A stretch of 64,000 bases of DNA. Source: an uncultured Acidobacteriota bacterium (GTDB lineage Bacteria > Acidobacteriota > Thermoanaerobaculia > Multivoradales > UBA5704). This document shows positions 21,829-55,121 of the stretch, piece after piece; position 1 is the first letter of the stretch; each line of letters starts with the position of its first letter. A program made the translations under genes and the position numbers. Location: positions 132,975 to 196,974 of the forward strand of contig CAVWOZ010000015.1 in assembly GCA_963756595.1 (NCBI GenBank), given 5' to 3'. The notes beneath the pieces are model-generated. The model did no database searches and had not been told where the DNA came from. It was given only the letters and a program-made list of their open reading frames with translations.

Positions 21829-22260
21829 TCAGCCGGCGGTCCATTCCGCGGCGAGGTCTTCATCCTCTTCGAGCCGTAGCCTCTCGAGCCGGTTCCCTGC
21901 CGGTAACCGGCCTGCCAGCTCGTCGTGAATCCAGCGGACCAGGTTCTCGCTCGACGGGACGGCTCCTCCTTCTACGAACTCCGGGAGCGCGGCGTTGAGG
22001 TGCTGATGGTCCAGCCGTTCGACGACGTGCTCCTGGACCAGCGCGTCGAGCCGGCCGAGGTCGATTAGGAAACCTGTCTGGGCGTCGATCTCCCCGCTCA
22101 CCGTCACGAACAGGCGGTAGTTGTGCCCGTGTCCGGGGAGGTTCGCACACTTCCCGAACCGCGCCCGGTTCTCGGCCTCGCTCCACTCGGGGCGCCGGTA
22201 GAGGTGGCTGGCGCTGAAGCGATAGCGGCGCTGGAGCATGATCTTCGTCCTCGTCGTCAT
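21829..22260 (-). CDS. queD: 6-carboxy-5,6,7,8-tetrahydropterin synthase
   Basis: 'FSASHLY..FGKCANLPGHGHNYRLFVTVSGEID' and 'LDHQHLN'. Confidence 0.88.
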   Translation of the reverse strand: MTTRTKIMLQRRYRFSASHLYRRPEWSEAENRARFGKCANLPGHGHNYRLFVTVSGEIDAQTGFLIDLGRLDALVQEHVVERLDHQHLNAALPEFVEGGAVPSSENLVRWIHDELAGRLPAGNRLERLRLEEDEDLAAEWTAG

Positions 22261-22324
22261 GGGGGGCTCTCCTCAGGGTCGGCGCGGAATCGCCTTCCGC
22301 GCTTTGGGCCCATATAATGCGCCG

Positions 22325-24718
22325 GTGCGGAAGCTCGATCGCTATATCTTCACTGAAATCCTCGGTCCTCTCGGGCTGGGATTCCTAGTCTATACCTTCA
22401 TTCTCCTCATCCGTTTTCTCTTCCAGTCGGCGGAGATGATCATCCGGCGCGGGCTGCCGGTGTCGATCGTCGGCAAGCTGCTGCTGATGACGCTGCCCAA
22501 CATCGTCGTCCTCACCCTGCCGATGTCTCTCCTGTTCGGCACGCTGATCGCAGTCGGGCGGCTGTCGTCGGACAGCGAGCTGATCGCCATGCGGGCCTCG
22601 GGGGTGAGCCTGCTGACCCTCTACCGCCCGGTCCTGATGCTCTCGGGGCTGCTGACCCTGCTCAACATCGTGCTGATGGTCTACGTGCTGCCCTGGGGCA
22701 ACCACGCTCTGCAGGAGCTGCGGCTCGAGATCACCACCCAGACCGTCTCGCAACAGGTCCAGCCGCGGGTCTTCTACGAGGAGTGGGAGGGGAAGGTCGT
22801 CTACGTCTTCGAGGTGCCTCCCGAGGGGAAACGATGGAAGGGGGTCTTCCTCGCCGAATCGATCCCATCGAGCCAGAACAACCAGATCACCATCGCCGAC
22901 TGGGGGGAGGTCCTCGTCGACCAGGCCGGAGAGCGGGTGGTCCTCCGCCTCTACAACGCGACCCAGCACAAGGTGGACTTGAACGCCCCCGACCGTTACG
23001 AGATCAGCCGGCACAAGCGGCTCGATCTCGTGCTGGACGACCAGTTCACCAGCGAGCAGAAGGCCAAGATGTCGGTCTCGAAGGGAATCCGCGAGCTCAC
23101 CCTCTCGGAGCTCCACGATCTCGAGCGCGACCTGTCGGTCGCCGCGGAGGACCGGAACCTGGCCCGCGTCGAGATCAACAAGAAGTTCTCGATCCCGTTC
23201 GCGTGCCTGGTCTTCGGCCTCTTCGCCCTGCCGCTGGGGATCAACAACCGGCGGGGCGGCAAGGCGTCGGGCTTCGCGCTGTCGATCGGGATCCTGATCG
23301 TCTACTACATCATGCTGAACAACGGCGAGGAGGCGGCCCGCTTCGGCAAGATGCCCGCCTGGCTGGCGATGTGGCTGCCCAACCTCCTGCTGGCGAGCCT
23401 GGGGGTCTTCCTCCTGGTCCGGCGCAACCGGGACAAGAGCCTGCTGCTGACGCGCATCGACCGCTGGGTCCGGGAAGACGTCTGGGGAGGGCTGCTGCGC
23501 CTGGACAAGATCCGCCGAGCCCGCCGGCGGGAGCACCGGGAGGAGCGGTTGCGCCGGGTGGCGGAGCGCTCGCAGAAGGCTGCCCGCGTGCCGCGGCTCG
23601 TCCTCCTCCTCCCCCGCCCGCGGATCGTCTTCCCAAACCTTCTCGACCGCTATGTCGGCAGGCTCTTCTCCTGGGTCTTCCTGCTGGTCGTCGCCTCGGG
23701 AGTGTCGCTGTTCATCATCTTCGACCTCTCCGAGAACTTCGACGACATCCTGAAGTACAAGGCCGCGCCGGGCGTCGTGCTCAACTACTACAAGTACCTC
23801 TCCTTGCAGATGTTCTACGACATCGCGCCGATCGTGGTCCTGGTGACGACGCTGCTGACCTTCAGCCTGCTGGCGCGCACCAACGAGATCACCGCGTGCA
23901 AGGCGTTGGGGATGAGCCTCTACCGGCTGGCTCTGCCGGCGCTCGCCGCGGCGCTCCTGGTGACCGTCTTCTGCGGCTACCTGGAGTCCTCGATCCTGCC
24001 GGCCTCGAACGAGAAGGTCGCGCGGCTCAAAGACCGTATCCACGGTCGCGAGACCGCCCGCACCTACCGCCGCGCGGATCGCCAGTGGCTGTTCGGCCAG
24101 AGGCGTTTCATCTACAACTACATCCACTACGACCCGCAGCAGGCGAACCTGCAACGGCTGCAGGTGTTCGATTTCGACGACCAGCATCGCATCACCCGCC
24201 GCCTCTTCGCGGAGTCGGCCCATTACGTCGGAGACGACGCCTGGGTCTTCTCGAACGGCTGGGCCCGGTCGTTTCAGGGGCTGGACGTGACCGCCTACAC
24301 GCGCTTCAAGGAGCCGAAGATCGTCCGCTATCCCGAGACCCCGGACTACTTCGATTCGGAGATCCGTCCGCCGGATCAGATGCGCTACGGAGAGCTCAAG
24401 GACTATATCGAGGAGCTCAAGGAGAGCGGCCAGGCGGTCCCGGAGCTGCAGGTGCAGCTGGCGGACAAGATCGCGCTTCCGGTGGCCTCCTTGATCATGG
24501 CGCTGGTGGCGCTCCCCTTCGCCTTCCGGCTGGGGCGCCAGGGAGCGCTCTACGGGATCGGGCTCTCGATCGGCTTGGGGATCGTCTTCATGGCCGTCTT
24601 CGCCTTCTTCACCAAGCTCGGCGAAGCCGGCGCCCTGCCGCCGGTGGTCGCGGTCTGGAGCCCGGCGGCGATCTTCGCGCTCTTCTCGAGCTACCTGTTC
24701 CTGGGAGTGCGGACGTGA
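22325..24718 (+). CDS. Fused LptF-LptG-type LPS export permease (two YjgP/YjgQ domains in one polypeptide)
   Basis: The first domain starts 'RKLDRYIFTEILGPLGLGF'. The second starts 'LLDRYVGRLFSWVFLLVV', after a basic linker 'RRARRREHREERLRRVAERSQKAAR'. The start is uncertain: GTG 22325 fits the family N-terminus, and ATG 22259 is an alternative. Confidence 0.8.
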   Translation: MRKLDRYIFTEILGPLGLGFLVYTFILLIRFLFQSAEMIIRRGLPVSIVGKLLLMTLPNIVVLTLPMSLLFGTLIAVGRLSSDSELIAMRASGVSLLTLYRPVLMLSGLLTLLNIVLMVYVLPWGNHALQELRLEITTQTVSQQVQPRVFYEEWEGKVVYVFEVPPEGKRWKGVFLAESIPSSQNNQITIADWGEVLVDQAGERVVLRLYNATQHKVDLNAPDRYEISRHKRLDLVLDDQFTSEQKAKMSVSKGIRELTLSELHDLERDLSVAAEDRNLARVEINKKFSIPFACLVFGLFALPLGINNRRGGKASGFALSIGILIVYYIMLNNGEEAARFGKMPAWLAMWLPNLLLASLGVFLLVRRNRDKSLLLTRIDRWVREDVWGGLLRLDKIRRARRREHREERLRRVAERSQKAARVPRLVLLLPRPRIVFPNLLDRYVGRLFSWVFLLVVASGVSLFIIFDLSENFDDILKYKAAPGVVLNYYKYLSLQMFYDIAPIVVLVTTLLTFSLLARTNEITACKALGMSLYRLALPALAAALLVTVFCGYLESSILPASNEKVARLKDRIHGRETARTYRRADRQWLFGQRRFIYNYIHYDPQQANLQRLQVFDFDDQHRITRRLFAESAHYVGDDAWVFSNGWARSFQGLDVTAYTRFKEPKIVRYPETPDYFDSEIRPPDQMRYGELKDYIEELKESGQAVPELQVQLADKIALPVASLIMALVALPFAFRLGRQGALYGIGLSIGLGIVFMAVFAFFTKLGEAGALPPVVAVWSPAAIFALFSSYLFLGVRT

Positions 24719-24722
24719 GGTC

Positions 24723-26033
24723 TCAGGCCCGCTCGCTCCGTAGCGCCGGATCCTGCCGGGCGAGGTGGAGGTAGCGCTGCAGATCGGCGAGGCGCCCATC
24801 CCTGAACTCCAGGCTCGCCGCCTGCCGGAACGCGATCAGCGCGGCGATCGCCTCACACTCGAGGCCCCGCGACTGGAAGATCGCGAGGACCTCCTCGGCC
24901 AAACGCCGCACCTCGGGAATCCGTCCCTGGCCGGCGCAAAGGCTGGCGAGGTCGAGGGAGACCGCGGCTGCGCTGAATCCGACTTCGAGCTCGATGAACC
25001 CTGAACGAGCTTCCCGCAGTGCCCTTTCGGCTTCCTGCGGAAAGCTCAGCGCTTCGTAGATCTTCCCTTCGAGCCAGCGCAAACGGAAAAGAAGCAACGG
25101 ACTGCCGTAGCGTTGGAACTCATCGCGGGAAGCCTTGAGCAGAAAGCGGGCCTCTCGCGGCCGACCACTCTCCTGTAAGTAGGCCATCAGGCTGTGCCGG
25201 GTCGCGAGGTCGACGTACCTCTCGCAGGTGGGATCGAGCAGACCGAGTCCCTTGCGCAGCCAGGACATCGCCCGGTTCAAATCACCCGAGGTTCCATACA
25301 CACGCCCCTTCTGGGCGAAGGCCCGGCCGAGGAGATGGGTGTCTCCGTACCGCTTGTAGATGGCGATCGCTTCGTCGAGCGTGCGATGGGCCTCGGCCGG
25401 ACAGCGCCGGTCGCGATGGAACGCGGCTTTCAGCTCGAGCACGAACGCCTTCTCCAGAGGGTCTCCCGATCCCCGGGCAGCGAAGCCTTCGGCGGCTTCG
25501 AAGGATCTCTGGGCCCCTCGGAGATCGGACCGGCGACGCAGCGTTTCGCCGCGGCAAGCCCACGCACGAGCCCGCAGATCGTTGATCAGGGCACCACCAT
25601 AGAGGTCGGCGAGGAGCTTTTCCGCGACGGTCACGGCACAGTCGGCCAAGGCCTCGGCCCGGCCGAAATCCACATAGGAGGCTCTCAGGCTCTCCTCGAT
25701 CAGCCATTCACCGACCGCCCAGGTATGGAAGGCTGAGTCGGACTCGACCAAGACGTTCGGGGCTTGCGACTTCGCCTGCAGGCGGGCGATGAGGAGGGGG
25801 AGTTGCTGGCGCTCGTGAGCGAACCGATGGGCATACTCCCCCACCCGCGGCAGGAAATCTCTGAAAGCCCGGCTGTAATCCTTTGCCATGAACCTCCAGG
25901 AACCCAGGAGGAGGTCACCTCCCCGCCGGCTTTCGTCGCCGGGGGTGAGCGGTTCACCGTGTCGCTTGGTGAAGCCGTCGATCCTGGCGGGGACGTCCGG
26001 CTGAGAATTGGGATCGGGAGGGTTGACGGTCAT
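24723..26033 (-). CDS. Helical-repeat (TPR-like) sensor-domain protein, paralog S1, with no recognisable output domain
   Basis: Aligns by eye along ~350 aa with 26197..27585, 29260..30609 and 52269..53864. Examples: 'DLRARAWACRGETLRRRSDLRGAQRSF', 'LFRLRWLEGKIY', 'AAAVSLDLASL', 'GRIPEVRRLAEEVLAIFQSRGLECEAIAALIAFRQAA'. It lacks both the CPxC motif and an HTH. Confidence 0.75.
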   Translation of the reverse strand: MTVNPPDPNSQPDVPARIDGFTKRHGEPLTPGDESRRGGDLLLGSWRFMAKDYSRAFRDFLPRVGEYAHRFAHERQQLPLLIARLQAKSQAPNVLVESDSAFHTWAVGEWLIEESLRASYVDFGRAEALADCAVTVAEKLLADLYGGALINDLRARAWACRGETLRRRSDLRGAQRSFEAAEGFAARGSGDPLEKAFVLELKAAFHRDRRCPAEAHRTLDEAIAIYKRYGDTHLLGRAFAQKGRVYGTSGDLNRAMSWLRKGLGLLDPTCERYVDLATRHSLMAYLQESGRPREARFLLKASRDEFQRYGSPLLLFRLRWLEGKIYEALSFPQEAERALREARSGFIELEVGFSAAAVSLDLASLCAGQGRIPEVRRLAEEVLAIFQSRGLECEAIAALIAFRQAASLEFRDGRLADLQRYLHLARQDPALRSERA

Positions 26034-26140
26034 GGCAACTCCTGGCAGTCAACGCGCACCCAGAAGGCACCGCAGTCCTTCTCGCAGCTCCTCTCGAGGG
26101 TACCCGAGAGCCATCACGAAAAGGGATGCGTGTGTGCGCT

Positions 26141-26165
26141 GGTACTATTTTAGCAGAATAGTACC
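26141..26165. promoter_or_regulatory. Perfect inverted repeat GGTACTATT-N7-AATAGTACC (candidate operator or terminator hairpin)
   Basis: Read directly. It is the most AT-rich spot of the cluster. It lies 32 nt downstream of the stop at 26197 and ~108 nt upstream of the S1 start at 26033 (minus strand). Confidence 0.4.
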
Positions 26166-26196
26166 GCGTAAGAACGCAACAGCGGGTGGAAGCGGA

Positions 26197-27585
26197 TCAG
26201 GAAGGCTGGGGAAAACGAAGGTCCGGATTGTTACGCACACGCTTGAGGAAGCTCGAGACCTCGCGGACGAGATCGAGCCCGGCCCGATCGATGCGCGCGG
26301 CACTCGAGAAGACGAGCAGGGCCGCCAGCGATTCACCGTGTGTATGGTGAGTCTGAAAGATCGCCAGGGTCTCTTCCGAGAGACGCCGCACTTCCGCGGT
26401 GCGCCCCTGAAGGACATAGACACCTGCGAGATCGAGCGAAGCGAGCGCGGCGTCGTAGGCCAGACCGAGCTCGACGAAGGCCTCACGGACTTCGCGGAAA
26501 GCGGCCTCCGCCTGATCGGTCCGCTGCAAGCCGAAGGCGACCAGCCCCTCCAGCCAGCGCAGCTTCAGCAGGTTCATCCGGTCGCCGGCTTTGAGATAGA
26601 GCGGCCGGCTGTGATACAGGAGGGCGAAGGCTTCCCGCACGCTCCCCCGTTCGTAGAGCGCGTGAATCAGGTTGTGACGGGCGGCGAGGAATACCCGGGG
26701 GTCGGCTTGGGGGTCGATCAGGTCGAGCGCCCGCCGGAGCAGCTTCATCTCTCCCTCGACATCGCCGGCCCAGCTGCAAACCAGCGACTTCTGCAGCAGG
26801 GTGCGGCCGAGCAGATGCCATTGGCCGAGCTTCTTGTAGATCGCGGCGACCCGGTCGAAGAGCTGGAGGGACTCTCCGAAGCGGTGCTGGGACCTCCGGC
26901 AGGACGCCAGGAGGGAGAGAACTTTGGCCTTCTCCGCGAGCGGAACCTGCGTTTCGGCCAGCACGGACTCGGTCACCGAGAACGCAGCCTCGGACGCGGC
27001 GAAGTCGGAGTTGATCCGGTACGCGTTGCCGAGTTGGGCCCAGGCGCGGGCGCGCAGGCCGGCGAGATCCTCTGCCCTACCCCATTCGCCGGCTCCCAGC
27101 CGGTCGGCCACCAGGACCGCCAGCTTCGCGAGCTCGACAGCGCGGCGCGGCTCCTCGAAGCCCGCCTCGTAGCTCGTCTCGGTAAGCCGCTCGCAGAGCA
27201 TCCGGTTCTGAAACCGCTGGCTGTTACTCAACAGGAGGTGACGACGCTCGGCCGGGCAATCCATGAGCTCCTGATAGAGGCTCTGGCCCTGGTTACGCTG
27301 CTGGGTGAGGCGGGCCTCGGTCGTCACCGCCTGTCCGAAGACGCGGTCGAGAACCTCGTCATAACCATCGCGGGCATCATGGGCGTCCTCCTCCGTGAGA
27401 TCCACCGTATCGAGCGCCTGCGGATCCTCGAAGACGTCGGCAGGCTCCCAGAGCCCCACCGTGACCTCCTGGCATTCCGGGCATCCCTCCAGCAGATGCC
27501 GAGCCACCTCGCGCATCTCCATCGTCGAGAGCCGTCCGAGAACGAACTCCTCGAGCGCCTCCGCGGTAGGATGCAGCGCGCTCAG
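26197..27585 (-). CDS. Soluble zf-HC2-like anti-sigma module fused to a TPR-like sensor domain (paralog S2, partner of sigma C)
   Basis: N-terminus 'HPTAEALEEFVLGRLSTMEMREVARHLLEGCPECQ' aligns with 'HPQRSLLSRFGRGRLRRHQNREIVRHLLAECPDCR' of 29260..30609. No TM-like hydrophobic stretch. The C-terminal sensor is homologous to S1/S3/S4. The start is uncertain. CTG 27585 overlaps the sigma stop (CTGA) and fits the alignment. TTG 27648 and ATG 27522 are alternatives. Confidence 0.75.
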   Translation of the reverse strand: MSALHPTAEALEEFVLGRLSTMEMREVARHLLEGCPECQEVTVGLWEPADVFEDPQALDTVDLTEEDAHDARDGYDEVLDRVFGQAVTTEARLTQQRNQGQSLYQELMDCPAERRHLLLSNSQRFQNRMLCERLTETSYEAGFEEPRRAVELAKLAVLVADRLGAGEWGRAEDLAGLRARAWAQLGNAYRINSDFAASEAAFSVTESVLAETQVPLAEKAKVLSLLASCRRSQHRFGESLQLFDRVAAIYKKLGQWHLLGRTLLQKSLVCSWAGDVEGEMKLLRRALDLIDPQADPRVFLAARHNLIHALYERGSVREAFALLYHSRPLYLKAGDRMNLLKLRWLEGLVAFGLQRTDQAEAAFREVREAFVELGLAYDAALASLDLAGVYVLQGRTAEVRRLSEETLAIFQTHHTHGESLAALLVFSSAARIDRAGLDLVREVSSFLKRVRNNPDLRFPQPS

Positions 27586-28115
27586 ACCCCCACCTTCTTC
27601 TTGCCGACTCCCGACGTGACCAGTTGCCGCGTCAGCGTCGCGAGGCAACGCGTCGTGATCTTGCTGATGCTCGCCGGGCTGTATCCCAGCCGCTCGGCGA
27701 GCTCGGCGGGAGCGTACCCCTGACGGTAGCGCAGGGACAGCAGCGAGCGGCAGCGCTCCGGCAAGCGCTCCAGCGCGCTGTCGAGGTCGCGGCGCATGTC
27801 CGCCCCTTCCTGTGCCGGATGGAGCGGCTCCGCCATGGCATCGAGCACCGCGGCGTCGACCGCATCGTAGATCTTGCGTCGCTGCTCTCGCCAGTACAGC
27901 AGGCACTTGTTACGGACGGTACCGAGCAGCCAGGCCTCCGGATCGCGGATGCCATCGCGATGGTAGACCAAGGCGAGCAAGGCCTGCTGGAGGATGTCTT
28001 CGGTGTCCTGCGGAGGGATGCGGTAATGTGCGAACAGGGCTTTCAAACGAGCCCGAGCCCCTTGGAGACAACCCTCAAGCGGCGACTCGACTTGGGGTTG
28101 GTCCAATGCACTCAT
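27582..28115 (-). CDS. ECF-type sigma-70 family factor (sigma C)
   Basis: Region 2 'RIPPQDTEDILQQALLALV..WLLGTVRNKCLLYWR'. Region 4 'RCRSLLSLRYRQGYAPAELAERLGYSPASISKITTRCLATLTRQL'. Confidence 0.88.
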   Translation of the reverse strand: MSALDQPQVESPLEGCLQGARARLKALFAHYRIPPQDTEDILQQALLALVYHRDGIRDPEAWLLGTVRNKCLLYWREQRRKIYDAVDAAVLDAMAEPLHPAQEGADMRRDLDSALERLPERCRSLLSLRYRQGYAPAELAERLGYSPASISKITTRCLATLTRQLVTSGVGKKKVGV

Positions 28116-28192
28116 CTTCCAAAAAGCATGTCAGACTAATCTACGATAAGGTACCACCAACGGCTGAATGATGTCCAGTCAGCCGCCGTGCT

Positions 28193-28217
28193 CCGCCGGG
28201 GCGGATCGCCCCGGCGG
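28193..28217 (-). terminator. GC-rich hairpin (11-bp stem, 3-nt loop) 20 nt after the small-protein stop; no U-tract
   Basis: CCGCCGGGGCG-gat-CGCCCCGGCGG. Confidence 0.4.
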
Positions 28218-28236
28218 TCCCCCGCTACGCGGCGTC

Positions 28237-28437
28237 CTAGCGATTTCCATCCGGGTCGATCTGCGGTCCCGCCAGGGGCAGCAGATGCGTCACGAGATCC
28301 CAGAGCCAGGAGAGAGTCCCTTGATCGTTCTGCACCGCCACCGTGGCGACCGCATGGGCCGGATGGACCGATGTCGCTCCGAGGACGAAGCTCAGGAGCA
28401 GGGCTGGGAAGGCGCGACGGAGATGCGGGCTGGTCAT
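28237..28437 (-). CDS. Small secreted protein/propeptide (66 aa), homolog of 54103..54387
   Basis: The ATG at 28437 is preceded by AAGGAGA with ~6-nt spacing. Signal peptide 'MTSPHLRRAFPALLLSFVLGATSVHPAHA|VAT'. The mature part 'VATVAVQNDQGTLSWLWDLVTHLLPLAGPQIDPDGNR' shares TLSxW and IDPxGN with the second copy. Confidence 0.65.
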   Translation of the reverse strand: MTSPHLRRAFPALLLSFVLGATSVHPAHAVATVAVQNDQGTLSWLWDLVTHLLPLAGPQIDPDGNR

Positions 28438-28613
28438 GGTGTTCTCCTTTTTTAAATTCGCCATCTTGGCTTAATAGCCATAGGCAATTAAAGAAACCCC
28501 ACAGATAAGTTCCCGCAGGACCGTCGGGAAGGACAGTCGCAGAGAAAAAATCTTCGCGGTCCGCTTCACGGCGGCCCGTCGAGACCAGCTAGGTCAGAGG
28601 AAGAGAAGGGAGA

Positions 28614-29159
28614 TCAGGATCCGGCCTGGAAGCCGGCGCCCAGGAGTTGCTCGGTCAGGGAGGCCAGACAACGGCGTGTCACTTTACGAATACTGGACTT
28701 GCAGTACCCCATTCGCTCCGCCGTCTCGGCGGTGCTGCAGCCGAATCCGTAGCGCAGCCTGAGCAGAGACCTGCAGCGATCCGGCAACTCGGCGAGGAGA
28801 GACTCGAGGTCGTAGCGCAGGTCCGCCCGCTCCTGGGGGGGCGCCTCCACATCGGCCAGCAGCTCGAGGAGCGTGCTGTCGACGAGGTCCCAGAGCTTGG
28901 CGCGGTGCTTCCGCCAGTAGATGATGCAGCGGTTGGCCAGCGTCGCAACCAGCCAAGGGTCGGGGTTGCGGATGCTCCCCGCCTTCGACACCATGATCAG
29001 GAACGTCTCCTGCAACAGATCTTCAGCGTCCTGGGCTGGAATGCGATAGCGGCCGAGCACCCTGCGGAGCTTGGGTTCTGCCCGCTCGAGGATCTCCTCC
29101 AGAGACGCCTCCACCAGCTCGGATGGGACCATCGGGTCCATGGCCTTATCTATCGACAT
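28614..29159 (-). CDS. ECF-type sigma-70 family factor (sigma B), with no adjacent anti-sigma gene
   Basis: 'RIPAQDAEDLLQETFLIMV..WLVATLANRCIIYWR' and 'RCRSLLRLRYGFGCSTAETAERMGYCKSSIRKVTRRCLASLTEQL'. Confidence 0.88.
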   Translation of the reverse strand: MSIDKAMDPMVPSELVEASLEEILERAEPKLRRVLGRYRIPAQDAEDLLQETFLIMVSKAGSIRNPDPWLVATLANRCIIYWRKHRAKLWDLVDSTLLELLADVEAPPQERADLRYDLESLLAELPDRCRSLLRLRYGFGCSTAETAERMGYCKSSIRKVTRRCLASLTEQLLGAGFQAGS

Positions 29160-29259
29160 TTAAGAACTAAAGATTATCATTCCCTGCTGGGGTTGTCCAG
29201 GTACTCGAGCGCGCATAGCGCAAGCCCTCTCTGCGCCATCCTGGAAGCGAAGAGCGGCT

Positions 29260-30609
29260 TCAGGAAGCGCGGGATTCCTTGAGGTAGCCGCTCACCTCCC
29301 GGATCAATCCCAGGGTCACACGCTCCATCTCCGCCGCCTTCTGGAAGACGAACAGGGCGGCCACGGCTTCCCGATGGATGTCCCGCGACTTGAAGATTTG
29401 CAGCATCTCTTCGGCCAGCCGCCGCATCTCGGAGGTCCGCCCGTCGCGGGCGTAAATGGTCGCCAGGTCGAGCGACAGCAGCGCGGCGTCGTAGCCCAAC
29501 TCGCGGTCGATCAGCTCCCTGTGCACGCTGCGCAGGAAGTCTTCGGCCTCTTTGAAGTGCCCCAGCGCGCTGGCGATCTTCCCCTCCAGCCAACGCAGGC
29601 GCAGGAGGTTCATCTGGTCGCCGATCTGATGGTAGAGAGGGCGCGCGCTGTTGAGCAGCTGGAGGGCTTCCACGTAGCGGCCGCTCTCGACCAGGTAGAG
29701 GGTCAGATTGTGCTGCGCCGCCACCACGAGCCGCGGATCGGACGTCGGCTCCACTCGCTGCAACCCCTCGGTGAGGTTCCGGATCGCCGCTTCCGGATCG
29801 CCGGCCAGGCCGAGCAGGAAGCCGCGGGTGATCAGGGCCCGGCCGCACAGGTGCGAGTCGTCGCAGCGGCGGCCGATGGCCCCCACCCGGTCGAGGATGC
29901 GAAAGGCCTCCCGGAAGCGCTGCTGGTTGCCATAGAGGGAGGCCTTGATCAGCAGGATCTGCGCTTTCTCGATCGGGTCGCCGGTTCCCGCCTTGAGCAG
30001 CCGCTCGGCCCGCGCGAAGCTGCGCTCCGCCGCCCGGAAATCCGAACGGATCCGCTGCGCGTTGCCCAGGCATGCCCAGGCGCGCGCTCCCAGGTCGTCG
30101 ACCCGGGCCTTGCCGTAGGTCTCGGCGTCGAGGTGCTCCACGACCGCGACGCCGAGCGTCGCGAGGGCGAGGGCGCGCGCGGGATCTTGAAAACCCCATT
30201 CGCTGGCCGAGTCGAGGAGCAGCTCGCAGAATCCCCAGGTGTTGAACCGGGAAGCCTCCTCGCTGATCAGGGCCTGCTGGCGTTCGAACGGCTGAGCGAG
30301 GAGCTCCCGCAACAGCTCGGCGGCCACCGCCCGCTCGGCCTGGAGAGCGATCGACCGCCGGTCGACCTCGGCTCCCGCGCGGGCGAAGGCCGGCCCATAG
30401 TGGAGACGAGGCACCCGGATCCTGACGTCGCTCTGGTGGCTCTCGGCGCCCGGCTCGGTTCCCATGCCCGACGGGAGCAGCCGGGACGTGAGTTGGCGGC
30501 AGTCCGGACACTCCGCGAGGAGGTGCCGGACGATCTCCCGGTTCTGATGGCGACGGAGCCGGCCGCGTCCGAAACGGGAGAGCAGGGATCGCTGGGGGTG
30601 TCTAACCAT
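29260..30609 (-). CDS. Soluble zf-HC2-like anti-sigma module fused to a TPR-like sensor domain (paralog S3, partner of sigma A)
   Basis: 'MVRHPQRSLLSRFGRGRLRRHQNREIVRHLLAECPDCRQL', then the sensor domain ('DLGARAWACLGNAQRIRSDFRAAERSF', 'LLRLRWLEGKI', 'DAALLSLDLATIY', 'GRTSEMRRLAEEMLQIFKSRDIHREAVAALFVFQKAA'). The ATG at 30609 overlaps the sigma A stop by 8 nt (ATGGTTAG). Confidence 0.82.
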   Translation of the reverse strand: MVRHPQRSLLSRFGRGRLRRHQNREIVRHLLAECPDCRQLTSRLLPSGMGTEPGAESHQSDVRIRVPRLHYGPAFARAGAEVDRRSIALQAERAVAAELLRELLAQPFERQQALISEEASRFNTWGFCELLLDSASEWGFQDPARALALATLGVAVVEHLDAETYGKARVDDLGARAWACLGNAQRIRSDFRAAERSFARAERLLKAGTGDPIEKAQILLIKASLYGNQQRFREAFRILDRVGAIGRRCDDSHLCGRALITRGFLLGLAGDPEAAIRNLTEGLQRVEPTSDPRLVVAAQHNLTLYLVESGRYVEALQLLNSARPLYHQIGDQMNLLRLRWLEGKIASALGHFKEAEDFLRSVHRELIDRELGYDAALLSLDLATIYARDGRTSEMRRLAEEMLQIFKSRDIHREAVAALFVFQKAAEMERVTLGLIREVSGYLKESRAS

Positions 30610-31153
30610 CCTGAGGCTCGGCCGCAGGCTCCCGATCGAACCCGACCGCCAGGAGCTGCCGGGTAAGGGCCGCCAGACAGCGGTTGGTCACTTTACGGAT
30701 GCTGGAGGTCCGGTAGCCCATCTGCTCCGCCACCTCGGTCGGACCGTAGCCGAGCCCGTAGCGCAGCTTGAGCAGCGACCGGCAGCGGGTCGACAGCCGG
30801 GAGAGCACCCGGTTGAGGTCGTAGGTCAGCTCCGTCTTCTCCTGGTCCGGGGCCTGCGGTACCGCCAGCAGGTCGAGGATCGCCGTATCGACGGCTTCGC
30901 AGAGACTGCCGCGCCGCTTGCGCCAGTACATGATGCACTTCTTCTTGACCGTGCCGATCAGCCAGCTCTCGGGGCTGCGGATCTTGTCCCACTTGTACAA
31001 CAGGGTGAGCTGCGCATCCTGAAGGATGTCTTCAGCGTCTTCCGGCGGGATCTCAAAGTTCCTCAAGACTCGCTCCAGCCGGGGCCGGGAGTTCTTCAGG
31101 AGAATGTTGAGCGATTCCCGCAGTTCAGGATGGTCAAGAGTTGCCATAGCCAC
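30602..31153 (-). CDS. ECF-type sigma-70 family factor (sigma A)
   Basis: 'EIPPEDAEDILQDAQLTLL..WLIGTVKKKCIMYWR' and 'RCRSLLKLRYGLGYGPTEVAEQMGYRTSSIRKVTNRCLAALTRQL'. Confidence 0.88.
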   Translation of the reverse strand: MAMATLDHPELRESLNILLKNSRPRLERVLRNFEIPPEDAEDILQDAQLTLLYKWDKIRSPESWLIGTVKKKCIMYWRKRRGSLCEAVDTAILDLLAVPQAPDQEKTELTYDLNRVLSRLSTRCRSLLKLRYGLGYGPTEVAEQMGYRTSSIRKVTNRCLAALTRQLLAVGFDREPAAEPQDG

Positions 31154-31265
31154 TATTTATGCCGTCGACAGTCGGTAGGCTAACACCCCGTTCGCCACCT
31201 GTCCATAGACGAAGGGAAGTTCCGGCCGGGCCGGCTGGTGACCGGCGCGCCGCGACGGGATCTGC

Positions 31266-52268: not shown

Positions 52269-53864
52269 TCAATCGCCCGCGCCATCGAACCGGAGGTCCG
52301 GTTCAAACCGTGCCCTGCGGAGGTAGAGGAGCACTTCGCGGGCGAACGCCTCCGTCACCCGTTCCCGCTCCGCCGCCTGGCGGAAGAGGGTCAGGGCGGC
52401 GAGCGCTTCGCGATGAACATCCTGAGCCTGAAAGATGGGTGCCATGTGGCGGGCGAGAATCTTCACCTGGTCCGACCGCCCCAGACCGGCATAACAGACG
52501 GCAAGTTCGAGCGAGACGAGCGCCGTGTCGTAACCCAGGTTGCGAGAGGCGAATTCTCCGCGCACCCGAGAGAGCGTGGCAATTCCAGCGGAAACATCGC
52601 CCTGGCCGGCGGCTATCCGTCCCTCAGTCCACAGGACGCGAAAGAGATTCAGCTCCCCTCCGTACTTCAGGCACAAGCTACGGGCCTCCGGCAAGAGCGC
52701 CGCCGCCTCCTCCATTTGCCCTAGCCTGCTCAGGCCGTCAGCCAAGTTGTGTCGAATCCATAAGCGGACTCTTCCTTCCTCGTCGGAACGAATACTCTCG
52801 TTCAAGCCCCGGAGGATCCCCACTGCCTGCCGGAGATCCCCTAGGTCGCCGAAGAGCTTGGCTCTGTTGACGAGCACCTCAACCCGGAATCTTGAGCTGC
52901 GGGCGACTGCGAGGGCCTGATCGAGAAGCTCGGCGGCTTCGTCGGAGCGCCGCTGTGCCCGGCGCAGGGACGCCTTGAGCGAATAGAAGAGTCCTTCCTC
53001 GAGAAGCTCGTTCTGGGCCTGCCTACCGTCCTTCCACAGTTCCTCGGCCGAGACGAAGGCTCGTTCCGCGGCGGGGAGGTCGCCTTGAACCCGGATGGCG
53101 TTCCCTATGTGCGCCCATGCGAAGCCGCGAAGCCTCGCGCGCCAGGCATCGTCACCCTCTGCACGATCGGCGGCAGAGAGCGCCAGCTCCGCGACGGCAC
53201 GGCCCTGGATCGGATCATCGGCGCACAAACGATGCGTCTCAAGGCAAAGCGTCTCGCAGACCGCCCATTGCAACTCGGCGGGGGCGTCGCTAAGCCTTGC
53301 CGCCTGCTCGTCGCTCGGCATTCCGCGGAGGCGCTCCCAGAGTTCGCTCGCGGCAGCCCGATCACACTCGGAAGGGGAAGACGCAGCGGCGATCTTCTGA
53401 GCCCCACCTCCCGCCCTAAGAATCCGGGCCAGGTGGTCGAGCCTGGCAGCGGTCCTGCTCATCTCCGCCGCCTGGATGCTGAGCTTCTCCGCCTCGCCTG
53501 CAAGGAAGGAAAGCTCGCCGAGCTCGGCGTCTGCGTCCTCCGAGGTTCTGCAGTCGGTGAGGAGCCGTTCGATGAACCACGCTCCAAGGTCGATCGCCGA
53601 CCAGCGGAATCGCATGGCAGCGAGGAGCTTCTCCAGAGTCGAGGCATCGGGCGTGGTGAGCGCCCGCTCATACTCCGAGATGGAAGCGCGCTTGACCCGA
53701 GCGAGCCGCGCGAGGTCCGATTGCGTCAAGCCGAGAGCCGTCCGGAGGGCCGCAAGCACCCTTCCGAGGTGGAGCGCTCCAAGCCCTTCAACCTTCTTCC
53801 GTGCCCGGGCTCGGCGAGCCGCCCGCGCGCCCTCTTCACCCGTCGTGCGGAGATTCCTCATCAT
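52269..53864 (-). CDS. XRE-family HTH fused to TPR-like sensor domain (paralog S4)
   Basis: HTH 'LRTALGLTQSDLARLARVKRASISEYERALTTPDASTLEKLLAAM'. C-terminal sensor homologous to S1-S3: 'RLRGFAWAHIGNAIRVQGDLPAAERAF', 'LFRVLWTEGRI', 'DTALVSLELAVCY', 'GRSDQVKILARHMAPIFQAQDVHREALAALTLFRQAAERERVT', 'YLRRARFEPDLRF'. Confidence 0.85.
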   Translation of the reverse strand: MMRNLRTTGEEGARAARRARARKKVEGLGALHLGRVLAALRTALGLTQSDLARLARVKRASISEYERALTTPDASTLEKLLAAMRFRWSAIDLGAWFIERLLTDCRTSEDADAELGELSFLAGEAEKLSIQAAEMSRTAARLDHLARILRAGGGAQKIAAASSPSECDRAAASELWERLRGMPSDEQAARLSDAPAELQWAVCETLCLETHRLCADDPIQGRAVAELALSAADRAEGDDAWRARLRGFAWAHIGNAIRVQGDLPAAERAFVSAEELWKDGRQAQNELLEEGLFYSLKASLRRAQRRSDEAAELLDQALAVARSSRFRVEVLVNRAKLFGDLGDLRQAVGILRGLNESIRSDEEGRVRLWIRHNLADGLSRLGQMEEAAALLPEARSLCLKYGGELNLFRVLWTEGRIAAGQGDVSAGIATLSRVRGEFASRNLGYDTALVSLELAVCYAGLGRSDQVKILARHMAPIFQAQDVHREALAALTLFRQAAERERVTEAFAREVLLYLRRARFEPDLRFDGAGD

Positions 53865-54102
53865 CCGGTCTCCCTCAAAGCAGTGTCATGAATAGAGGAC
53901 TTTTGCCCTTAAAGAGATGGTGTGTGCTGGGGCTAGAGGCGAGCCGTTCCGGCAGATCGGGTCTCGCTTGACCGGTCCGAGAGTCATCTTGTACCGTCCA
54001 AGGGACTGTTTGTCCCTCCTTGCGGCACCTCTCTAGGAAGAGAGCGGAACCCGGGTGCCGCTTTGGCGGCCGGACTTGTTCCGCCCAGAAAGGACGAGTG
54101 TC

Positions 54103-54387
54103 ATGTCCCGTACGCGCCGACTGCATGTCGCACCTCTCCTCCTCGCTTCCTTCTTGATCGCCTGGCCTGCTCCGGGTGCTGCCGCGGAACGTCGGTCGGA
54201 AGGCCAGCCTGTTCACTTCTCACTGCTTCGGATTTTCTTGCCGGCGTGGAGGGCTACCCTCTCGTTTTGGGAGAAAGAAGGAAGCTCCATTGACCCCTAT
54301 GGCAATCCCAAGCCGAACGCTATAGCGCCTGTGCCGGGGAGCAACGGAATTCCTCCGACGCAAAGCAATCCCGGATCGACGAGTTAG
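54103..54387 (+). CDS. Small secreted protein/propeptide (94 aa), homolog of 28237..28437
   Basis: ATG at 54103 after AAAGGACGAG. Signal peptide 'MSRTRRLHVAPLLLASFLIAWPAPGAAA|ERR'. The mature part contains 'ATLSFWEKEGSSIDPYGNPKPN' (compare 'GTLSWLWD...GPQIDPDGNR') and a Pro-rich tail. It is divergent from the XRE-sensor gene. Confidence 0.6.
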   Translation: MSRTRRLHVAPLLLASFLIAWPAPGAAAERRSEGQPVHFSLLRIFLPAWRATLSFWEKEGSSIDPYGNPKPNAIAPVPGSNGIPPTQSNPGSTS

Positions 54388-54441
54388 CCAGGGCGCCGCG
54401 GCCTCTTCATCTTCCCAATCCTCACGGTCATTTGTGCCTCA

Positions 54442-54464
54442 GAGGGGTACGCAACGTACTCCTC
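54442..54464 (+). terminator. Hairpin downstream of the small secreted-protein gene (no clear U-tract)
   Basis: GAGGGGTACG-caa-CGTACTCCTC (9 of 10 paired). Confidence 0.35.
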
Positions 54465-54512
54465 TCAGTCCTTCCATTGTCGAAGGTCGCGGGAGCGTGC
54501 ATAGATTCCTCT

Positions 54513-55121
54513 ATGAAGACCCTCATGGCCGACTCGATCGATGGACTCGACATCCTGTCCATTCCGACTCTGGAGACGGAACGCCTGCGGCTCAGGTCGT
54601 TCCGCAAGAGCGACCTCGACGACTACGCCGCGCTGAACGCCGATCGGGAGGTCTTGCGCTATCGGACCACGGGGACGGAGCCCTGGGACCGGGGCCGATC
54701 CTCTCGCCACATGGCCTTCCTCGTCGGACACTGGAAGCTCTGGGACGCCGGCACGTGGGCGATGGAGGACAAGGAGTCCGGCGCGTTCCTCGGGATGGTC
54801 GGCTTTTCCTCGCCGGAGGGTTGGCCCGGGTTCGAGCTGGCTTGGACGCTCGCGCGGCGGGCTTGGGGCAATGGCTATGCGACGGAGGGGGCCCGGGCCG
54901 CCATGGACCACGCGTTCGTCGTCTGGAAGAGGGCTCACATCATCAGCCTCATCGCGCCCGAGAACCGGGCCTCCATCCGCGTCGCCGAGCGCCTCGGCGA
55001 GCGCCTGGAGGAACGCATTCTCCACCTTGGACGGGAGATGCTCCGCTATGGGCTCGGCCGGGAAACCTACCTGAGCGAGGTCGCCCCGGGCGGCGCCTTG
55101 GCTCTGCACGGCGAAACCTGA
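54513..55121 (+). CDS. GNAT-family N-acetyltransferase (RimJ/RimL-like)
   Basis: 'LETERLRLRSFRKSDLDDYAAL', 'WGNGYATEGARAAMDHAF', 'NRASIRVAERLG'. ATG at 54513. Confidence 0.85.
   Translation: MKTLMADSIDGLDILSIPTLETERLRLRSFRKSDLDDYAALNADREVLRYRTTGTEPWDRGRSSRHMAFLVGHWKLWDAGTWAMEDKESGAFLGMVGFSSPEGWPGFELAWTLARRAWGNGYATEGARAAMDHAFVVWKRAHIISLIAPENRASIRVAERLGERLEERILHLGREMLRYGLGRETYLSEVAPGGALALHGET

What the first reader, a model, noticed from the sequence alone, without database searches (positions are those of the whole stretch)
24723..31153. Array of three paralogous ECF sigma genes controlled by soluble zinc-finger/TPR-like 'sensor' anti-sigma proteins
Seen in sequence, on the minus strand in order:
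- Sigma A (30602-31153), then S3 (29260-30609), whose ATG overlaps the sigma stop by 8 nt.
- Sigma B (28614-29159), then a 66-aa signal-peptide protein (28237-28437), then a GC hairpin.
- Sigma C (27582-28115), then S2 (26197-~27585), whose start overlaps the sigma stop.
- A sensor-only paralog S1 (24723-26033).

The three sigmas are clear paralogs: they share IPxxDxEDxLQ, YWR, RCRSLLxLRY and SIxKxTxRCLAxLTxQL.

S2 and S3 open with HP-x23-RHLLxxCPxC. This is H-x4-C-x2-C, one residue longer than the classical ZAS H-x3-C-x2-C. There is a further His 25 residues upstream. As I recall, that is the spacing of the zinc ligands H6/H31 in R. sphaeroides ChrR. About 350 aa of helical repeats follow, with no TM-like segment.

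Inference: these are cytoplasmic anti-sigma factors whose large repeat domain is the signal-receiving part. That differs from the usual membrane-spanning or small redox-sensing anti-sigmas. Triplication suggests diversified signal specificity.
Basis: partly seen in the sequence, partly recalled or inferred. Interest (0 to 1): 0.8.

Follow-up and report, generated by a model that had tools for sequence, protein, structure and literature searches.

The report
Peptide-linked ECF sigma/anti-sigma gene array
A conserved block of three sigma-factor genes in Thermoanaerobaculia (Acidobacteriota) is controlled by two soluble zinc-finger anti-sigma proteins whose large TPR domain probably senses a small secreted peptide encoded in the same block, a signalling logic so far known only from Gram-positive bacteria.

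Summary
All seven ORFs lie at the stated coordinates. The same ordered array (SigA-S3, SigB, small ORF, SigC-S2, S1) sits between metK and lptFG in 40 of 47 related Acidobacteriota genomes.

S2 and S3 are best read as soluble class I (ZAS, His/His/Cys/Cys) anti-sigma factors.
- Their N-terminal profile hits only solved anti-sigma domains (DdvA, ChrR, RslA) and Pfam zf-HC2.
- His4, His29, Cys34 and Cys37 are invariant.
- There is no transmembrane segment, and about nine TPR hairpins follow.

- The three sigma genes share a private promoter, TGGACA-N17-(TGn)TAnnnT. Of 112 occurrences in 868 kb, 110 lie upstream of these genes.
- SigB never has an adjacent anti-sigma gene.
- The "66-aa signal-peptide protein" belongs to a peptide family with a C-terminal K-x-G-x-x-[ILMN]-D-P-x-G unit, tandemly repeated up to five times in relatives. 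All 40 such ORFs found lie next to a protein carrying this TPR domain.
- That domain also occurs fused to an XRE helix-turn-helix, including a second peptide/receptor pair in this window (52269-54387).

Best reading (inferred): a peptide-gated, RRNPP-like ECF switch. It is a new variant of known kinds, and nothing has been shown experimentally.

The parts
30602..31153 (-). SigA, an ECF sigma factor (183 aa)
   Evidence: ORF. Pfam finds Sigma70_r2 plus r4_2, and NCBIfam finds TIGR02937 above its cut-off. Orthologs are present in 40 loci.
31177..31205 (-). Private promoter of sigA: TGGACA-N17-(TGt)TAGCCT
   Evidence: It is one of only three matches in the 64-kb window. It is nearly invariant in 38 of 39 loci. 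Of 112 matches in 868 kb, 110 lie upstream of SigA/B/C genes.
29260..30609 (-). S3, a soluble anti-sigma factor. The ZAS-like anti-sigma domain spans residues 1-45 (about 30475-30609), followed by a disordered linker (43-71), a long helix (72-104) and TPR hairpins (108-448).
   Evidence: The 8-nt overlap with sigA is seen. The profile hits DdvA, ChrR and RslA. Pfam zf-HC2 matches 24 of 39 family members. The AF2 model has pLDDT 87. No transmembrane segment is present.
28614..29159 (-). SigB, an ECF sigma paralog with no adjacent anti-sigma gene
   Evidence: The gene order in 40 loci is shown.
29171..29199 (-). Private promoter of sigB: TGGACA-N17-TAATCT (orthologs have TGaTAAGCT)
28504..28537 (-). 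Conserved element upstream of the peptide gene: (G)TGTCC-N15-GCGGGAAC. GCGG[TGA]AAC also forms the loop of a hairpin at 28495-28522.
   Evidence: The element is conserved in about 26 loci. The hairpin is listed as terminator-like. Its function is unresolved.
28460..28485 (-). 5' leader hairpin just upstream of the peptide gene's ribosome-binding site
   Evidence: The stem is kept by compensatory changes across loci, with entirely different sequences in L014, L016, L028 and L031. Rfam has no match.
28237..28437 (-). Small secreted peptide precursor (66 aa): Sec-type signal peptide, an amphipathic stretch, and the C-terminal unit ...LAGPQIDPDGNR
   Evidence: The family is conserved in about 30 arrays, and the unit is tandemly repeated in several of them. 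All 40 such ORFs lie next to an S-like TPR gene.
28193..28217 (-). GC-rich hairpin after the peptide gene, with no T-tract
   Evidence: Sequence located. The terminator scan did not score it.
28148..28177 (-). Private promoter of sigC: TGGACA-N18-TACCTT (orthologs have gGTGtTAGTGT)
27582..28115 (-). SigC, an ECF sigma paralog (177 aa)
26197..27585 (-). S2, the second ZAS-TPR anti-sigma factor. Its CTG start overlaps the sigC TGA.
   Evidence: Orthologs start M-x-x-x-H-P, and HLLxGCxxC is invariant.
26141..26165 (-). Palindrome GGTACTATT-ctgctaa-AATAGTACC upstream of S1, containing TGCTAAAAT (extended -10-like)
   Evidence: TCTGCTAAAAT is conserved in 11 of 20 loci.
24723..26033 (-). S1, a TPR-only paralog without the anti-sigma domain (436 aa)
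   Evidence: It is present in about 24 arrays and never carries the zinc motif.
52269..53864 (-). Related module: an XRE helix-turn-helix fused to the same TPR sensor domain (531 aa)
   Evidence: It matches the S-family HMM at E 1.7e-68. Pfam finds HTH_3 at E 1e-11. The AF2 model has pLDDT 85.5.
54103..54387 (+). Related module: a second peptide precursor (signal peptide plus ...FWEKEGSSIDPYGNPKP...), divergent from the HTH-TPR gene
   Evidence: The same pairing is seen in L048, L049, L050, L051 and L053, with up to five tandem units.

Best explanation
The locus is one conserved regulatory circuit of a Thermoanaerobaculia clade.

Three transcription units each start with the same private promoter: sigA-S3, sigB-(leader)-peptide and sigC-S2. 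A fourth gene, S1, has a separate extended -10-like element upstream.

S3 and S2 are cytoplasmic class I anti-sigma factors. A small N-terminal His/His/Cys/Cys zinc-finger three-helix module holds the co-translated sigma (SigA or SigC). The C-terminal TPR superhelix of about 350 aa is the input domain.

Most likely, the ligand of the TPR domain is a short peptide. It would be cut from the Sec-exported precursor encoded inside the array (unit K-x-G-x-[RQ]-I-D-P-D-G-N) and taken up again. Binding would change the TPR and linker conformation and free the sigma. This is the RRNPP logic of Gram-positive bacteria, but with an anti-sigma head instead of a helix-turn-helix.

The freed sigma(s) would then drive the three TGGACA promoters as positive feedback. 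SigB, which has no anti-sigma, would act as an amplifier, and the peptide gene would be driven too. S1, the TPR-only paralog, would compete for or buffer the same ligand.

Shown here: the gene structure, its conservation, the anti-sigma-domain homology, the absence of a membrane segment, the exclusivity of the promoter, and the peptide/TPR-gene co-occurrence.

Inferred: sigma binding, zinc binding, the peptide being the ligand, re-import of the peptide, and which sigma reads which promoter.
For: Anti-sigma identity:
- A profile of 39 N-termini has invariant H4, L10, H29, C34 and C37.
- Its five best PDB matches are all ZAS anti-sigma domains: DdvA 2.4e-5, full-length DdvA 2e-3, ChrR about 1e-2 (two entries) and RslA 1e-2.
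- Pfam zf-HC2 is matched by 24 of 39 members, and no other family by more than 2.
- The sigma stop and the anti-sigma start overlap in the window and across loci.
- Distant relatives carry the classical H-x3-C-x2-C.

Soluble TPR sensor:
- No transmembrane segment is present.
- The AF2 model has pLDDT 87 and about nine TPR hairpins.
- Foldseek's best matches are peptide-wrapping TPR superhelices (LGN/Pins). Nearly all bacterial matches in the top 50 are RRNPP Rap receptors, including pheromone-bound forms, with target-normalised TM up to 0.64-0.65.

Peptide link:
- A six-frame scan of about 880 kb finds 40 ORFs of at most 140 aa with a signal-peptide-like start and [ILMN]D[PDG]xG. All 40 are adjacent to a gene with this TPR domain.
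- The pairing holds for three receptor types and three gene arrangements: arrays; 6 of 6 orphan ZAS-TPR genes with the peptide directly upstream; and 6 of 7 XRE-TPR genes.
- The motif variant tracks the receptor type: RIDPDG, GLDPHG, SxDPFG.
- The unit is tandemly repeated 2-5 times in many precursors. Tandem duplication is a known feature of RRNPPA propeptides (PMC11343458).
- The architecture meets the operational RRNPP definition of an adjacent TPR receptor and a Sec propeptide of 10-100 aa (PMC10075063). The 531-aa XRE-TPR paralog slightly exceeds the 250-500 aa receptor range.

Circuit:
- TGGACA-N16-18-TAnnnT occurs three times in the window, against 0.09 expected, and all three are the sigma promoters.
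- Of 112 occurrences in 868 kb, 110 are upstream of these sigma genes.
Against: - No binding of any kind was tested.
- The zinc motif has one extra residue (H-x4-C), and the window's own S3 does not reach Pfam zf-HC2 on its own.
- TPR superhelices resemble each other, so the Rap similarity (E about 1e-4) is weak evidence.
- Co-occurrence does not give direction. The peptide could be the product of the circuit rather than its signal.
- Eight arrays, all from one clade, have no peptide gene within 10 kb.
- In a diderm cell a 10-residue peptide must cross the outer membrane twice and be imported. No oligopeptide importer was seen among the window proteins scanned.
- The motif varies little between species in the array type, unlike fast-diverging pheromones.
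- The conserved TGn in the sigma promoters looks like an extended -10. ECF sigmas lack domain 3 and would not be expected to read it, so autoregulation is uncertain.
Confidence: 0.45

Rival explanations
1. The sigma/anti-sigma pairs are the same, but the peptide is an output rather than the input. The TPR domains would sense some other cytoplasmic ligand or partner protein. The released sigmas, or the XRE-TPR regulator in the second module, would then switch on the neighbouring small secreted, possibly membrane-active or modified, peptide as the effector.
For: - The peptide gene has its own conserved upstream element with an ECF-like GnAAC core and a structured leader, as expected for a tightly regulated target.
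- Regulators commonly sit next to their targets.
- The mature part contains an amphipathic stretch.
- The XRE-linked peptides are followed by a GNAT acetyltransferase gene in 4 of 7 loci. This suggests modification or immunity.
- Eight arrays work without a nearby peptide gene.
Against: - This reading does not explain why three receptor types with unrelated output heads all keep this one peptide family as neighbour, in 40 of 40 cases.
- It does not explain why the short C-terminal unit, rather than the whole mature peptide, is the conserved and tandemly multiplied part.
- It leaves the TPR ligand unknown.
Confidence: 0.3
2. Secretion monitoring. The TPR domains would bind the C-terminal unit of the precursor in the cytoplasm before export, in a chaperone-like way. 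Accumulation of unexported precursor when Sec or envelope function is compromised would titrate the anti-sigma and release the sigma, making this an envelope or secretion stress switch.
For: - TPR proteins commonly bind C-terminal peptides.
- The receptors are cytoplasmic and the partner carries a Sec signal, so no re-import is needed.
- The array lies among envelope genes, next to lptFG and in the same window as lptC/A, lptB and secA.
Against: - Tandem multiplication of the unit and Lys-flanked repeats fit proteolytic release of several small peptides better.
- No precedent was found in the literature searches.
- Genomic neighbourhood to lpt and sec genes is weak evidence.
Confidence: 0.1
3. 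Redox switch. S2 and S3 would act like RsrA or RshA. Oxidation of the zinc-site cysteines would release the sigma, and the TPR domain would serve only as a scaffold or for oligomerisation.
For: - The two Cys of the motif are invariant.
- Soluble ZAS proteins are enriched among redox sensors (PMC7406223).
- Three Cys are invariant in all three sigmas.
Against: - The ligand set is His/His/Cys/Cys, as in ChrR. From established knowledge of ChrR, its zinc site is structural and the C-terminal domain receives the signal.
- A conserved 350-aa domain shared with XRE regulators and with a TPR-only paralog points to ligand sensing.
Confidence: 0.1
4. S2 and S3 are not anti-sigma factors. The N-terminal zinc-finger-like motif would have another role, for example DNA or protein binding as a co-activator, and the adjacency to sigma genes would reflect only co-regulation.
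For: - The motif spacing is non-canonical (H-x4-C).
- The window's S3 misses the Pfam zf-HC2 threshold.
- Six distant relatives have no sigma gene within 10 kb.
Against: - The family profile hits only anti-sigma domains in the PDB.
- Pfam zf-HC2 is matched by 24 of 39 members.
- Stop/start overlap with the sigma gene is conserved across about 40 genomes.
Confidence: 0.05

Closest known systems
ChrR / sigma-E of Rhodobacter (Cereibacter) sphaeroides (PDB 2Q1Z, 2Z2S)
   Same: - It is a soluble two-domain anti-sigma factor with an N-terminal zinc anti-sigma domain and His/His/Cys/Cys ligands.
- The distal His lies 25 residues upstream.
- A separate C-terminal domain receives the signal.
- The gene is adjacent to its ECF sigma.
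- The alignment is shown.
   Different: - The C-terminal domain here is a TPR superhelix of about 350 aa, not a cupin.
- The motif is H-x4-C-x2-C instead of H-x3-C-x2-C.
- The proposed signal is a peptide rather than singlet oxygen.
- There are three sigma paralogs with a shared private promoter.
DdvA / DdvS of Myxococcus xanthus (PDB 8RLZ, 8ROT; PMC11506125)
   Same: It is the best sequence match of the N-terminal module (E 2.4e-5). DdvA is a zinc-bound three-helix anti-sigma domain followed by TPR repeats.
   Different: - DdvA has a transmembrane helix and a periplasmic TPR-CHAT protease-like domain.
- It is thought to be released by regulated proteolysis and controls a defence island.
- S2 and S3 have no membrane segment and no CHAT domain, and they lie in a core chromosomal region.
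RRNPP(A) peptide quorum-sensing receptors of Bacillota (Rap, NprR, PlcR, PrgX, AimR)
   Same: - The receptor is cytoplasmic and TPR-based, and is encoded next to a small Sec-exported propeptide.
- Tandemly duplicated peptide units occur.
- One receptor form carries an XRE helix-turn-helix and another has no DNA-binding head, like Rap and S1.
- Rap is the best bacterial structural match.
   Different: - The phylum is diderm (Acidobacteriota).
- The output head in S2 and S3 is an anti-sigma domain, which has not been described for RRNPP.
- No sequence-level membership was shown.
- Peptide binding and re-import are untested.
ECF42 sigma factors (TPR-containing C-terminal extension)
   Same: An ECF sigma is regulated through a cytoplasmic TPR domain without a membrane anti-sigma factor (PMC7826278).
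   Different: In ECF42 the TPR is fused to the sigma itself and no anti-sigma factor exists. Here the TPR is on a separate ZAS anti-sigma protein.

Membership tests
ECF (group 4) sigma-70 factors | Only the sigma2 and sigma4 domains are present, and the protein is about 170-200 aa. | tested here: met
   Pfam finds Sigma70_r2 plus Sigma70_r4_2 in all three proteins. NCBIfam TIGR02937 scores 61-72 bits against a cut-off of 42.9. Lengths are 177-183 aa.
ECF (group 4) sigma-70 factors | Membership of a defined ECF group (ECF Hub classification) | not testable with these tools
   No subgroup model reached its cut-off. The best were SigE-fam_strep at 66 bits (cut-off 141) and Sig-70_gvs1 at 66 bits (cut-off 124). 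The best PDB relatives are generic ECFs such as SigL and SigJ. The ECF Hub models and the paper's supplement were not available.
ECF (group 4) sigma-70 factors | The sigma gene is autoregulated from a group-specific promoter. | tested here: inconclusive
   The shared private promoter TGGACA-N17-TAnnnT is exclusive to the three genes. It carries an extended -10-like TGn and lacks the usual AAC/CGT signature.
Class I anti-sigma domain, zinc-binding (ZAS; Pfam zf-HC2) | Sequence or profile similarity to known anti-sigma domains | tested here: met
   The five best PDB matches of the family profile are DdvA (two entries), ChrR (two entries) and RslA. Pfam zf-HC2 is matched by 24 of 39 members, best E 3.9e-6. 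The window's S3 alone gives no Pfam hit.
Class I anti-sigma domain, zinc-binding (ZAS; Pfam zf-HC2) | Canonical motif H/C-x23-26-H-x3-C-x2-C | tested here: not met
   All S2 and S3 orthologs have H-x24-H-x4-C-x2-C, which is one extra residue. The 39-40%-identical relatives L040-L047 have the canonical x3 spacing.
Class I anti-sigma domain, zinc-binding (ZAS; Pfam zf-HC2) | The gene lies immediately downstream of, and is co-transcribed with, the cognate ECF sigma. | tested here: met
   sigA and S3 overlap by 8 nt. sigC and S2 overlap as ATGA, or CTGA in the window. This is conserved in about 40 loci.
Class I anti-sigma domain, zinc-binding (ZAS; Pfam zf-HC2) | Binds sigma2 and sigma4 of the partner and binds zinc. 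| not testable with these tools
No biochemistry is available.
ChrR-type two-domain soluble anti-sigma factors | C-terminal cupin sensor domain | tested here: not met
   The C-terminal domain is TPR.
DdvA-type anti-sigma factors | Transmembrane helix and periplasmic TPR-CHAT domain | tested here: not met
   No hydrophobic segment is present. Pfam finds no CHAT domain.
RRNPP(A) peptide signalling systems | Adjacent genes for a cytoplasmic TPR receptor of 250-500 aa and a Sec-exported propeptide of 10-100 aa | tested here: met
   The receptors are 436-531 aa, the XRE-TPR paralog being slightly over the range, and have no transmembrane segment. The precursors are 66-120 aa with a signal-peptide-like start. 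Adjacency holds in 40 of 40 cases. The definition comes from PMC10075063. The signal peptides were judged by a hydropathy and AxA heuristic only.
RRNPP(A) peptide signalling systems | Homology of the receptor to RRNPP TPR families | tested here: inconclusive
   Only generic TPR Pfam families match. Foldseek gives Rap proteins at E about 1e-4 and target-normalised TM 0.61-0.65, behind eukaryotic LGN/Pins.
RRNPP(A) peptide signalling systems | The processed peptide is re-imported and binds the TPR groove, changing the output. | not testable with these tools
   No structure coordinates, docking or experiment were available. No oligopeptide permease gene was seen among the window proteins scanned.
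RRNPP(A) peptide signalling systems | Output head is a helix-turn-helix or a Rap-type N-terminal domain; taxon is Bacillota. | tested here: not met
   S2 and S3 carry an anti-sigma head. Only the paralog at 52269-53864 has an XRE helix-turn-helix. All loci are Acidobacteriota.

The most novel reading that the evidence does not exclude
Acidobacteriota, a diderm phylum, would possess a large and undescribed family of RRNPP-like peptide signalling systems. A Sec-exported, often multi-copy precursor (unit K-x-G-x-x-[ILMN]-D-P-x-G) would be sensed by one cytoplasmic TPR domain that evolution has plugged onto three heads: a zinc anti-sigma domain (peptide-gated ECF sigma release, as in this array), an XRE helix-turn-helix, or none. 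This would be the first peptide-receptor anti-sigma factor and the first RRNPP-type communication outside Bacillota.
Probability: 0.4. Interest if true: 0.85.

Novelty: new variant of a known kind. Interest (0 to 1): 0.68.

Why it matters
ECF sigma factors are a major bacterial signalling device, yet the signals of most soluble anti-sigma factors are unknown.

This locus offers a concrete, testable candidate ligand, a defined 10-residue peptide unit, for a family of at least several thousand uncharacterised proteins (3,366 clusters at 50% identity with E <= 1e-30).

If the peptide is the signal, two things follow:
- Cytoplasmic-receptor peptide communication would extend to a dominant soil phylum with an outer membrane.
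- Anti-sigma factors would be added to the known output modules of such receptors.

Even if the peptide is only the output, the locus is useful. A fixed three-sigma circuit with a private promoter is a compact natural example of interlocked ECF feedback, and could supply orthogonal parts for synthetic biology.

Tried and rejected
- Single-sequence searches of S3 gave nothing useful. Pfam and NCBIfam showed only TPR and the PDB showed only TPR noise. The anti-sigma relationship appeared only with a family profile.
- Rfam has no match for the conserved leader hairpins. RNAalifold on my alignment returned no consensus; the hairpin is supported only by inspection of compensatory changes.
- The generic sigma-70 promoter and terminator scan found neither the private promoters nor the GC hairpin.
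- PADLOC gave no defence-system match except generic helix-turn-helix hits, so a defence-island reading was rejected. Core-genome synteny agrees.
- A RiPP reading was considered because S1 weakly matches the cyclophane RiPP TPR protein HaaT (E 0.002, far below cut-off). No maturase gene is nearby, so it was rejected.
- Assignment to an ECF group failed because the supplement of PMC7826278 is not held.
- A sigma gene was sought next to the six orphan ZAS-TPR genes. None was found even at E <= 10.

Full report
**1. Observation**

| Gene | Coordinates | Length |
|---|---|---|
| SigA | 30602-31153 | 183 aa |
| S3 | 29260-30609 | 449 aa |
| SigB | 28614-29159 | 181 aa |
| small ORF | 28237-28437 | 66 aa |
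| SigC | 27582-28115 | 177 aa |
| S2 | 26197-27585 | 462 aa |
| S1 | 24723-26033 | 436 aa |

- The S3 ATG overlaps the sigA stop by 8 nt.
- The small ORF starts at the ATG that follows a strong AAAGGAGA ribosome-binding site.
- The three sigmas are 48-50% identical and share the quoted motifs. They contain only Sigma70_r2 and r4_2.
- S1, S2 and S3 are 39-41% identical and carry TPR repeats. None has a hydrophobic stretch long enough for a membrane helix.
- One correction concerns the S2 start. No canonical start codon is present there. The codon at 27585 is CTG and overlaps the sigC TGA as CTGA. Nearly all orthologs have ATG at that position (L005 has GTG); the 90%-identical relative L001 reads Leu like the window.

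**2. Conservation**

A scan of species-representative genomes with S3 returned 47 loci. All are Acidobacteriota, mostly Thermoanaerobaculia. L045 and L047 are Holophagales.

HMM scans of their ORFs show the same ordered array in 40 of them: SigA-S3-SigB-(gap)-SigC-S2, with S1 following in about 24. The array always lies between DUF84-metK and a reversed lptFG-queD-parB block. It is therefore an old, fixed, core-chromosome feature and not a recent expansion or a mobile island. PADLOC finds no defence system.

SigB never has an adjacent anti-sigma gene. The deep-branching loci L037 and L046 lack S2 and S1 as well.

**3. The N-terminal module of S2 and S3**

- In an alignment of 39 N-termini from S3, S2 and distant orthologs, His4, Leu10, His29, Cys34 and Cys37 are invariant.
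- Searched against all PDB sequences, this profile's five best hits are exclusively zinc-binding class I anti-sigma domains: DdvA N-terminus (E 2.4e-5), full-length DdvA, ChrR (two entries, about 1e-2) and RslA (1e-2). After these come only GATA-finger noise.
- Pfam zf-HC2 is matched by 24 of the 39 members, and no other family by more than two.
- The ChrR alignment places His4 on H6 and HLLxxCxxC on H31/C35/C38 with a single-residue gap.
- Six more distant relatives (39-40% identity, L040-L047) have the canonical H-x3-C-x2-C, so the extra residue is a derived trait.
- The ligand set (His/His/Cys/Cys) is that of ChrR. From established knowledge of ChrR, its zinc site is structural and the C-terminal domain receives the signal.
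- The AF2 model of S3 (pLDDT 87) shows three short helices (7-42), a disordered linker (43-71), a long helix (72-104) and about nine TPR hairpins.
- I conclude that S2 and S3 are soluble ZAS-type anti-sigma factors.
- Soluble zinc-motif anti-sigmas are common (PMC7406223). Solubility alone is therefore not the novelty.

**4. A private promoter**

About 55-65 nt upstream of each sigma gene lies cTGGACA-N17/18-(TGn)TA[AG]nnT.

- In the 64-kb window the pattern occurs exactly three times, at these sites, against 0.09 expected.
- In 868 kb of related loci it occurs 112 times, and 110 of these are upstream of SigA/B/C genes.
- The canonical TTGACA version occurs elsewhere: 2 times in the window and 20 times in the loci.

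The three genes are thus wired to one dedicated promoter type. The natural reading is auto- and cross-activation by these ECFs. The conserved TGn, however, resembles an extended -10, which ECF sigmas are not expected to read.

**5. The small ORF is the key partner**

Its relatives have three parts: a Sec-type signal peptide with an AxA site, an amphipathic stretch, and a C-terminal unit K-x-G-[VI]-[RQ]-I-D-[PDG]-[DN]-G. In several species the unit is repeated in tandem, twice in L013, L014, L017, L028 and L036 and three times in L031.

- All six orphan ZAS-TPR genes (L040-L047) have a related precursor ending G-[NS]-G-[LI]-D-P-[HF]-G. It lies 84-162 nt upstream on the same strand, and no sigma gene is nearby.
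- Five deep-branching arrays have an additional precursor just upstream of sigA.
- A blind six-frame scan of about 880 kb looked for ORFs of at most 140 aa with a signal-peptide-like start and [ILMN]D[PDG]xG. It returns 40 ORFs, and all 40 are adjacent to a gene carrying this TPR domain.

**6. The same sensor on other heads**

The S-family HMM also hits the window gene 52269-53864 (E 1.7e-68). This gene is an XRE helix-turn-helix fused to the same TPR domain. Divergent from it, 54103-54387 encodes a signal peptide followed by ...FWEKEGSSIDPYGNPKP....

- Of six further XRE-TPR homologs examined, five have the same neighbour. The units are SxDPFG, present once to five times; L050 has KAGGSTDPFG repeated five times.
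- In four of the seven XRE-TPR loci a GNAT acetyltransferase gene follows the peptide gene.
- TPR-only forms of about 380 aa also exist, like S1.
- An exhaustive profile search finds 3,366 cluster representatives at E <= 1e-30. The best 150 are mostly proteins of about 450 aa that match from profile position 1-4, so they include the anti-sigma head.

**7. Comparison with what is known**

- Foldseek places both models nearest to peptide-wrapping TPR superhelices (LGN/Pins). Nearly all bacterial hits in the top 50 are RRNPP Rap receptors, including pheromone-bound forms, with target-normalised TM 0.61-0.65.
- RRNPP systems are operationally defined as an adjacent cytoplasmic TPR receptor and a Sec propeptide (PMC10075063). 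Tandemly duplicated pheromone units are a documented feature (PMC11343458). They are described only in Bacillota.
- I found no paper linking RRNPP-type receptors to anti-sigma factors, and none describing a cytoplasmic ZAS-TPR anti-sigma.

**8. Mechanism and rivals**

I rank the readings as follows:

| Reading | Confidence |
|---|---|
| Peptide-gated ECF switch | 0.45 |
| Peptide is the output of the circuit | 0.30 |
| Precursor sensed before export (secretion monitor) | 0.10 |
| Redox switch at the zinc site | 0.10 |
| S2 and S3 are not anti-sigma factors | 0.05 |

The co-occurrence data are strong, but they do not give the direction of information flow. Several observations still argue for caution:
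- Eight arrays, all from one clade, lack both the peptide gene and S1.
- The organism has an outer membrane that the peptide would have to cross.
- The motif changes little between species.

**9. Verdict**

The finding is real and more interesting than first described, but for partly different reasons. It is a new variant of known kinds: a ZAS anti-sigma factor with a new sensor domain, and RRNPP-like gene logic with a new output head in a new phylum. Everything functional remains inference.

Noticed in passing
window 52269-55121: A second peptide/receptor module lies here. It comprises an XRE-HTH-TPR regulator (52269-53864, minus strand), a divergent secreted-peptide gene (54103-54387) and a GNAT Acetyltransf_3 gene (54432-55121). 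The peptide-GNAT pair recurs in L049, L050 and L051, which suggests peptide modification or immunity.
   Followed up: partly
window 27583-27585: The S2 start codon is CTG, overlapping the sigC TGA as CTGA. Nearly all orthologs have ATG here. The change is shared with the 90%-identical relative L001, so it is not a sequencing error. The next in-frame ATG (M22) would remove His4 and helix 1.
   Followed up: partly
window 28460-28537: Two conserved elements lie in the sigB-peptide spacer. The first is GTGTC[CT]-N15-16-GCGG[TGA]AACTCTAC; it is hairpin-loop forming, and TGTCC is the reverse complement of the GGACA in the sigma promoters. The second is a leader hairpin kept by compensatory changes just before the ribosome-binding site. 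Rfam has no match.
   Followed up: partly
window 26141-26165: A perfect 9-bp palindrome, GGTACTATT...AATAGTACC, lies about 108 nt upstream of S1. Its loop contains TGCTAAAAT (extended -10-like). The loop sequence is conserved in 11 of 20 loci.
   Followed up: no
window 27582-31153 (SigA C73, C124, C159 and equivalents): Three cysteines are invariant in all three sigma paralogs: one in region 2 (KCxxYWR) and two in region 4 (RCRSLL, RCLA). They could form a redox or metal site in the sigma itself.
   Followed up: no
window 22238-24718 and 7157-9301: The LPS-transport genes appear fused. One 826-aa ORF carries two LptF_LptG matches. One 714-aa ORF carries an N-terminal LptC match and a C-terminal LptA/LptD_N match.
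   Followed up: no
L050 1353-1715 (minus strand); L031 and L016 SigB-SigC spacer: The peptide unit is strongly multiplied in some precursors. L050 has five tandem K[AE]G[GS]STDPFG units. L031 has three SKLGVRIDDNG units. L016 has two or three units.
   Followed up: partly
L015, L024, L027, L030, L033, L039, L043 (arrays with S2 motif HLLNGC): One clade of arrays has lost both the peptide gene and S1 together, leaving a SigB-SigC spacer of only about 80 nt. The Thermoanaerobaculum sp. MAG L024 belongs to this clade.
   Followed up: partly
L012 9456-11384; L018, L019 and L021 S2 region: There are apparent frameshifts or fusions in some MAG assemblies, with SigA fused to S3 in L012 and S2 split in L018, L019 and L021. 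These are probably assembly errors or pseudogenes.
   Followed up: no
homologs of S3: Several close S3 homologs carry a precomputed Pfam accession, PF28559.1, that is absent from the local Pfam copy. Its identity could not be checked.
   Followed up: no
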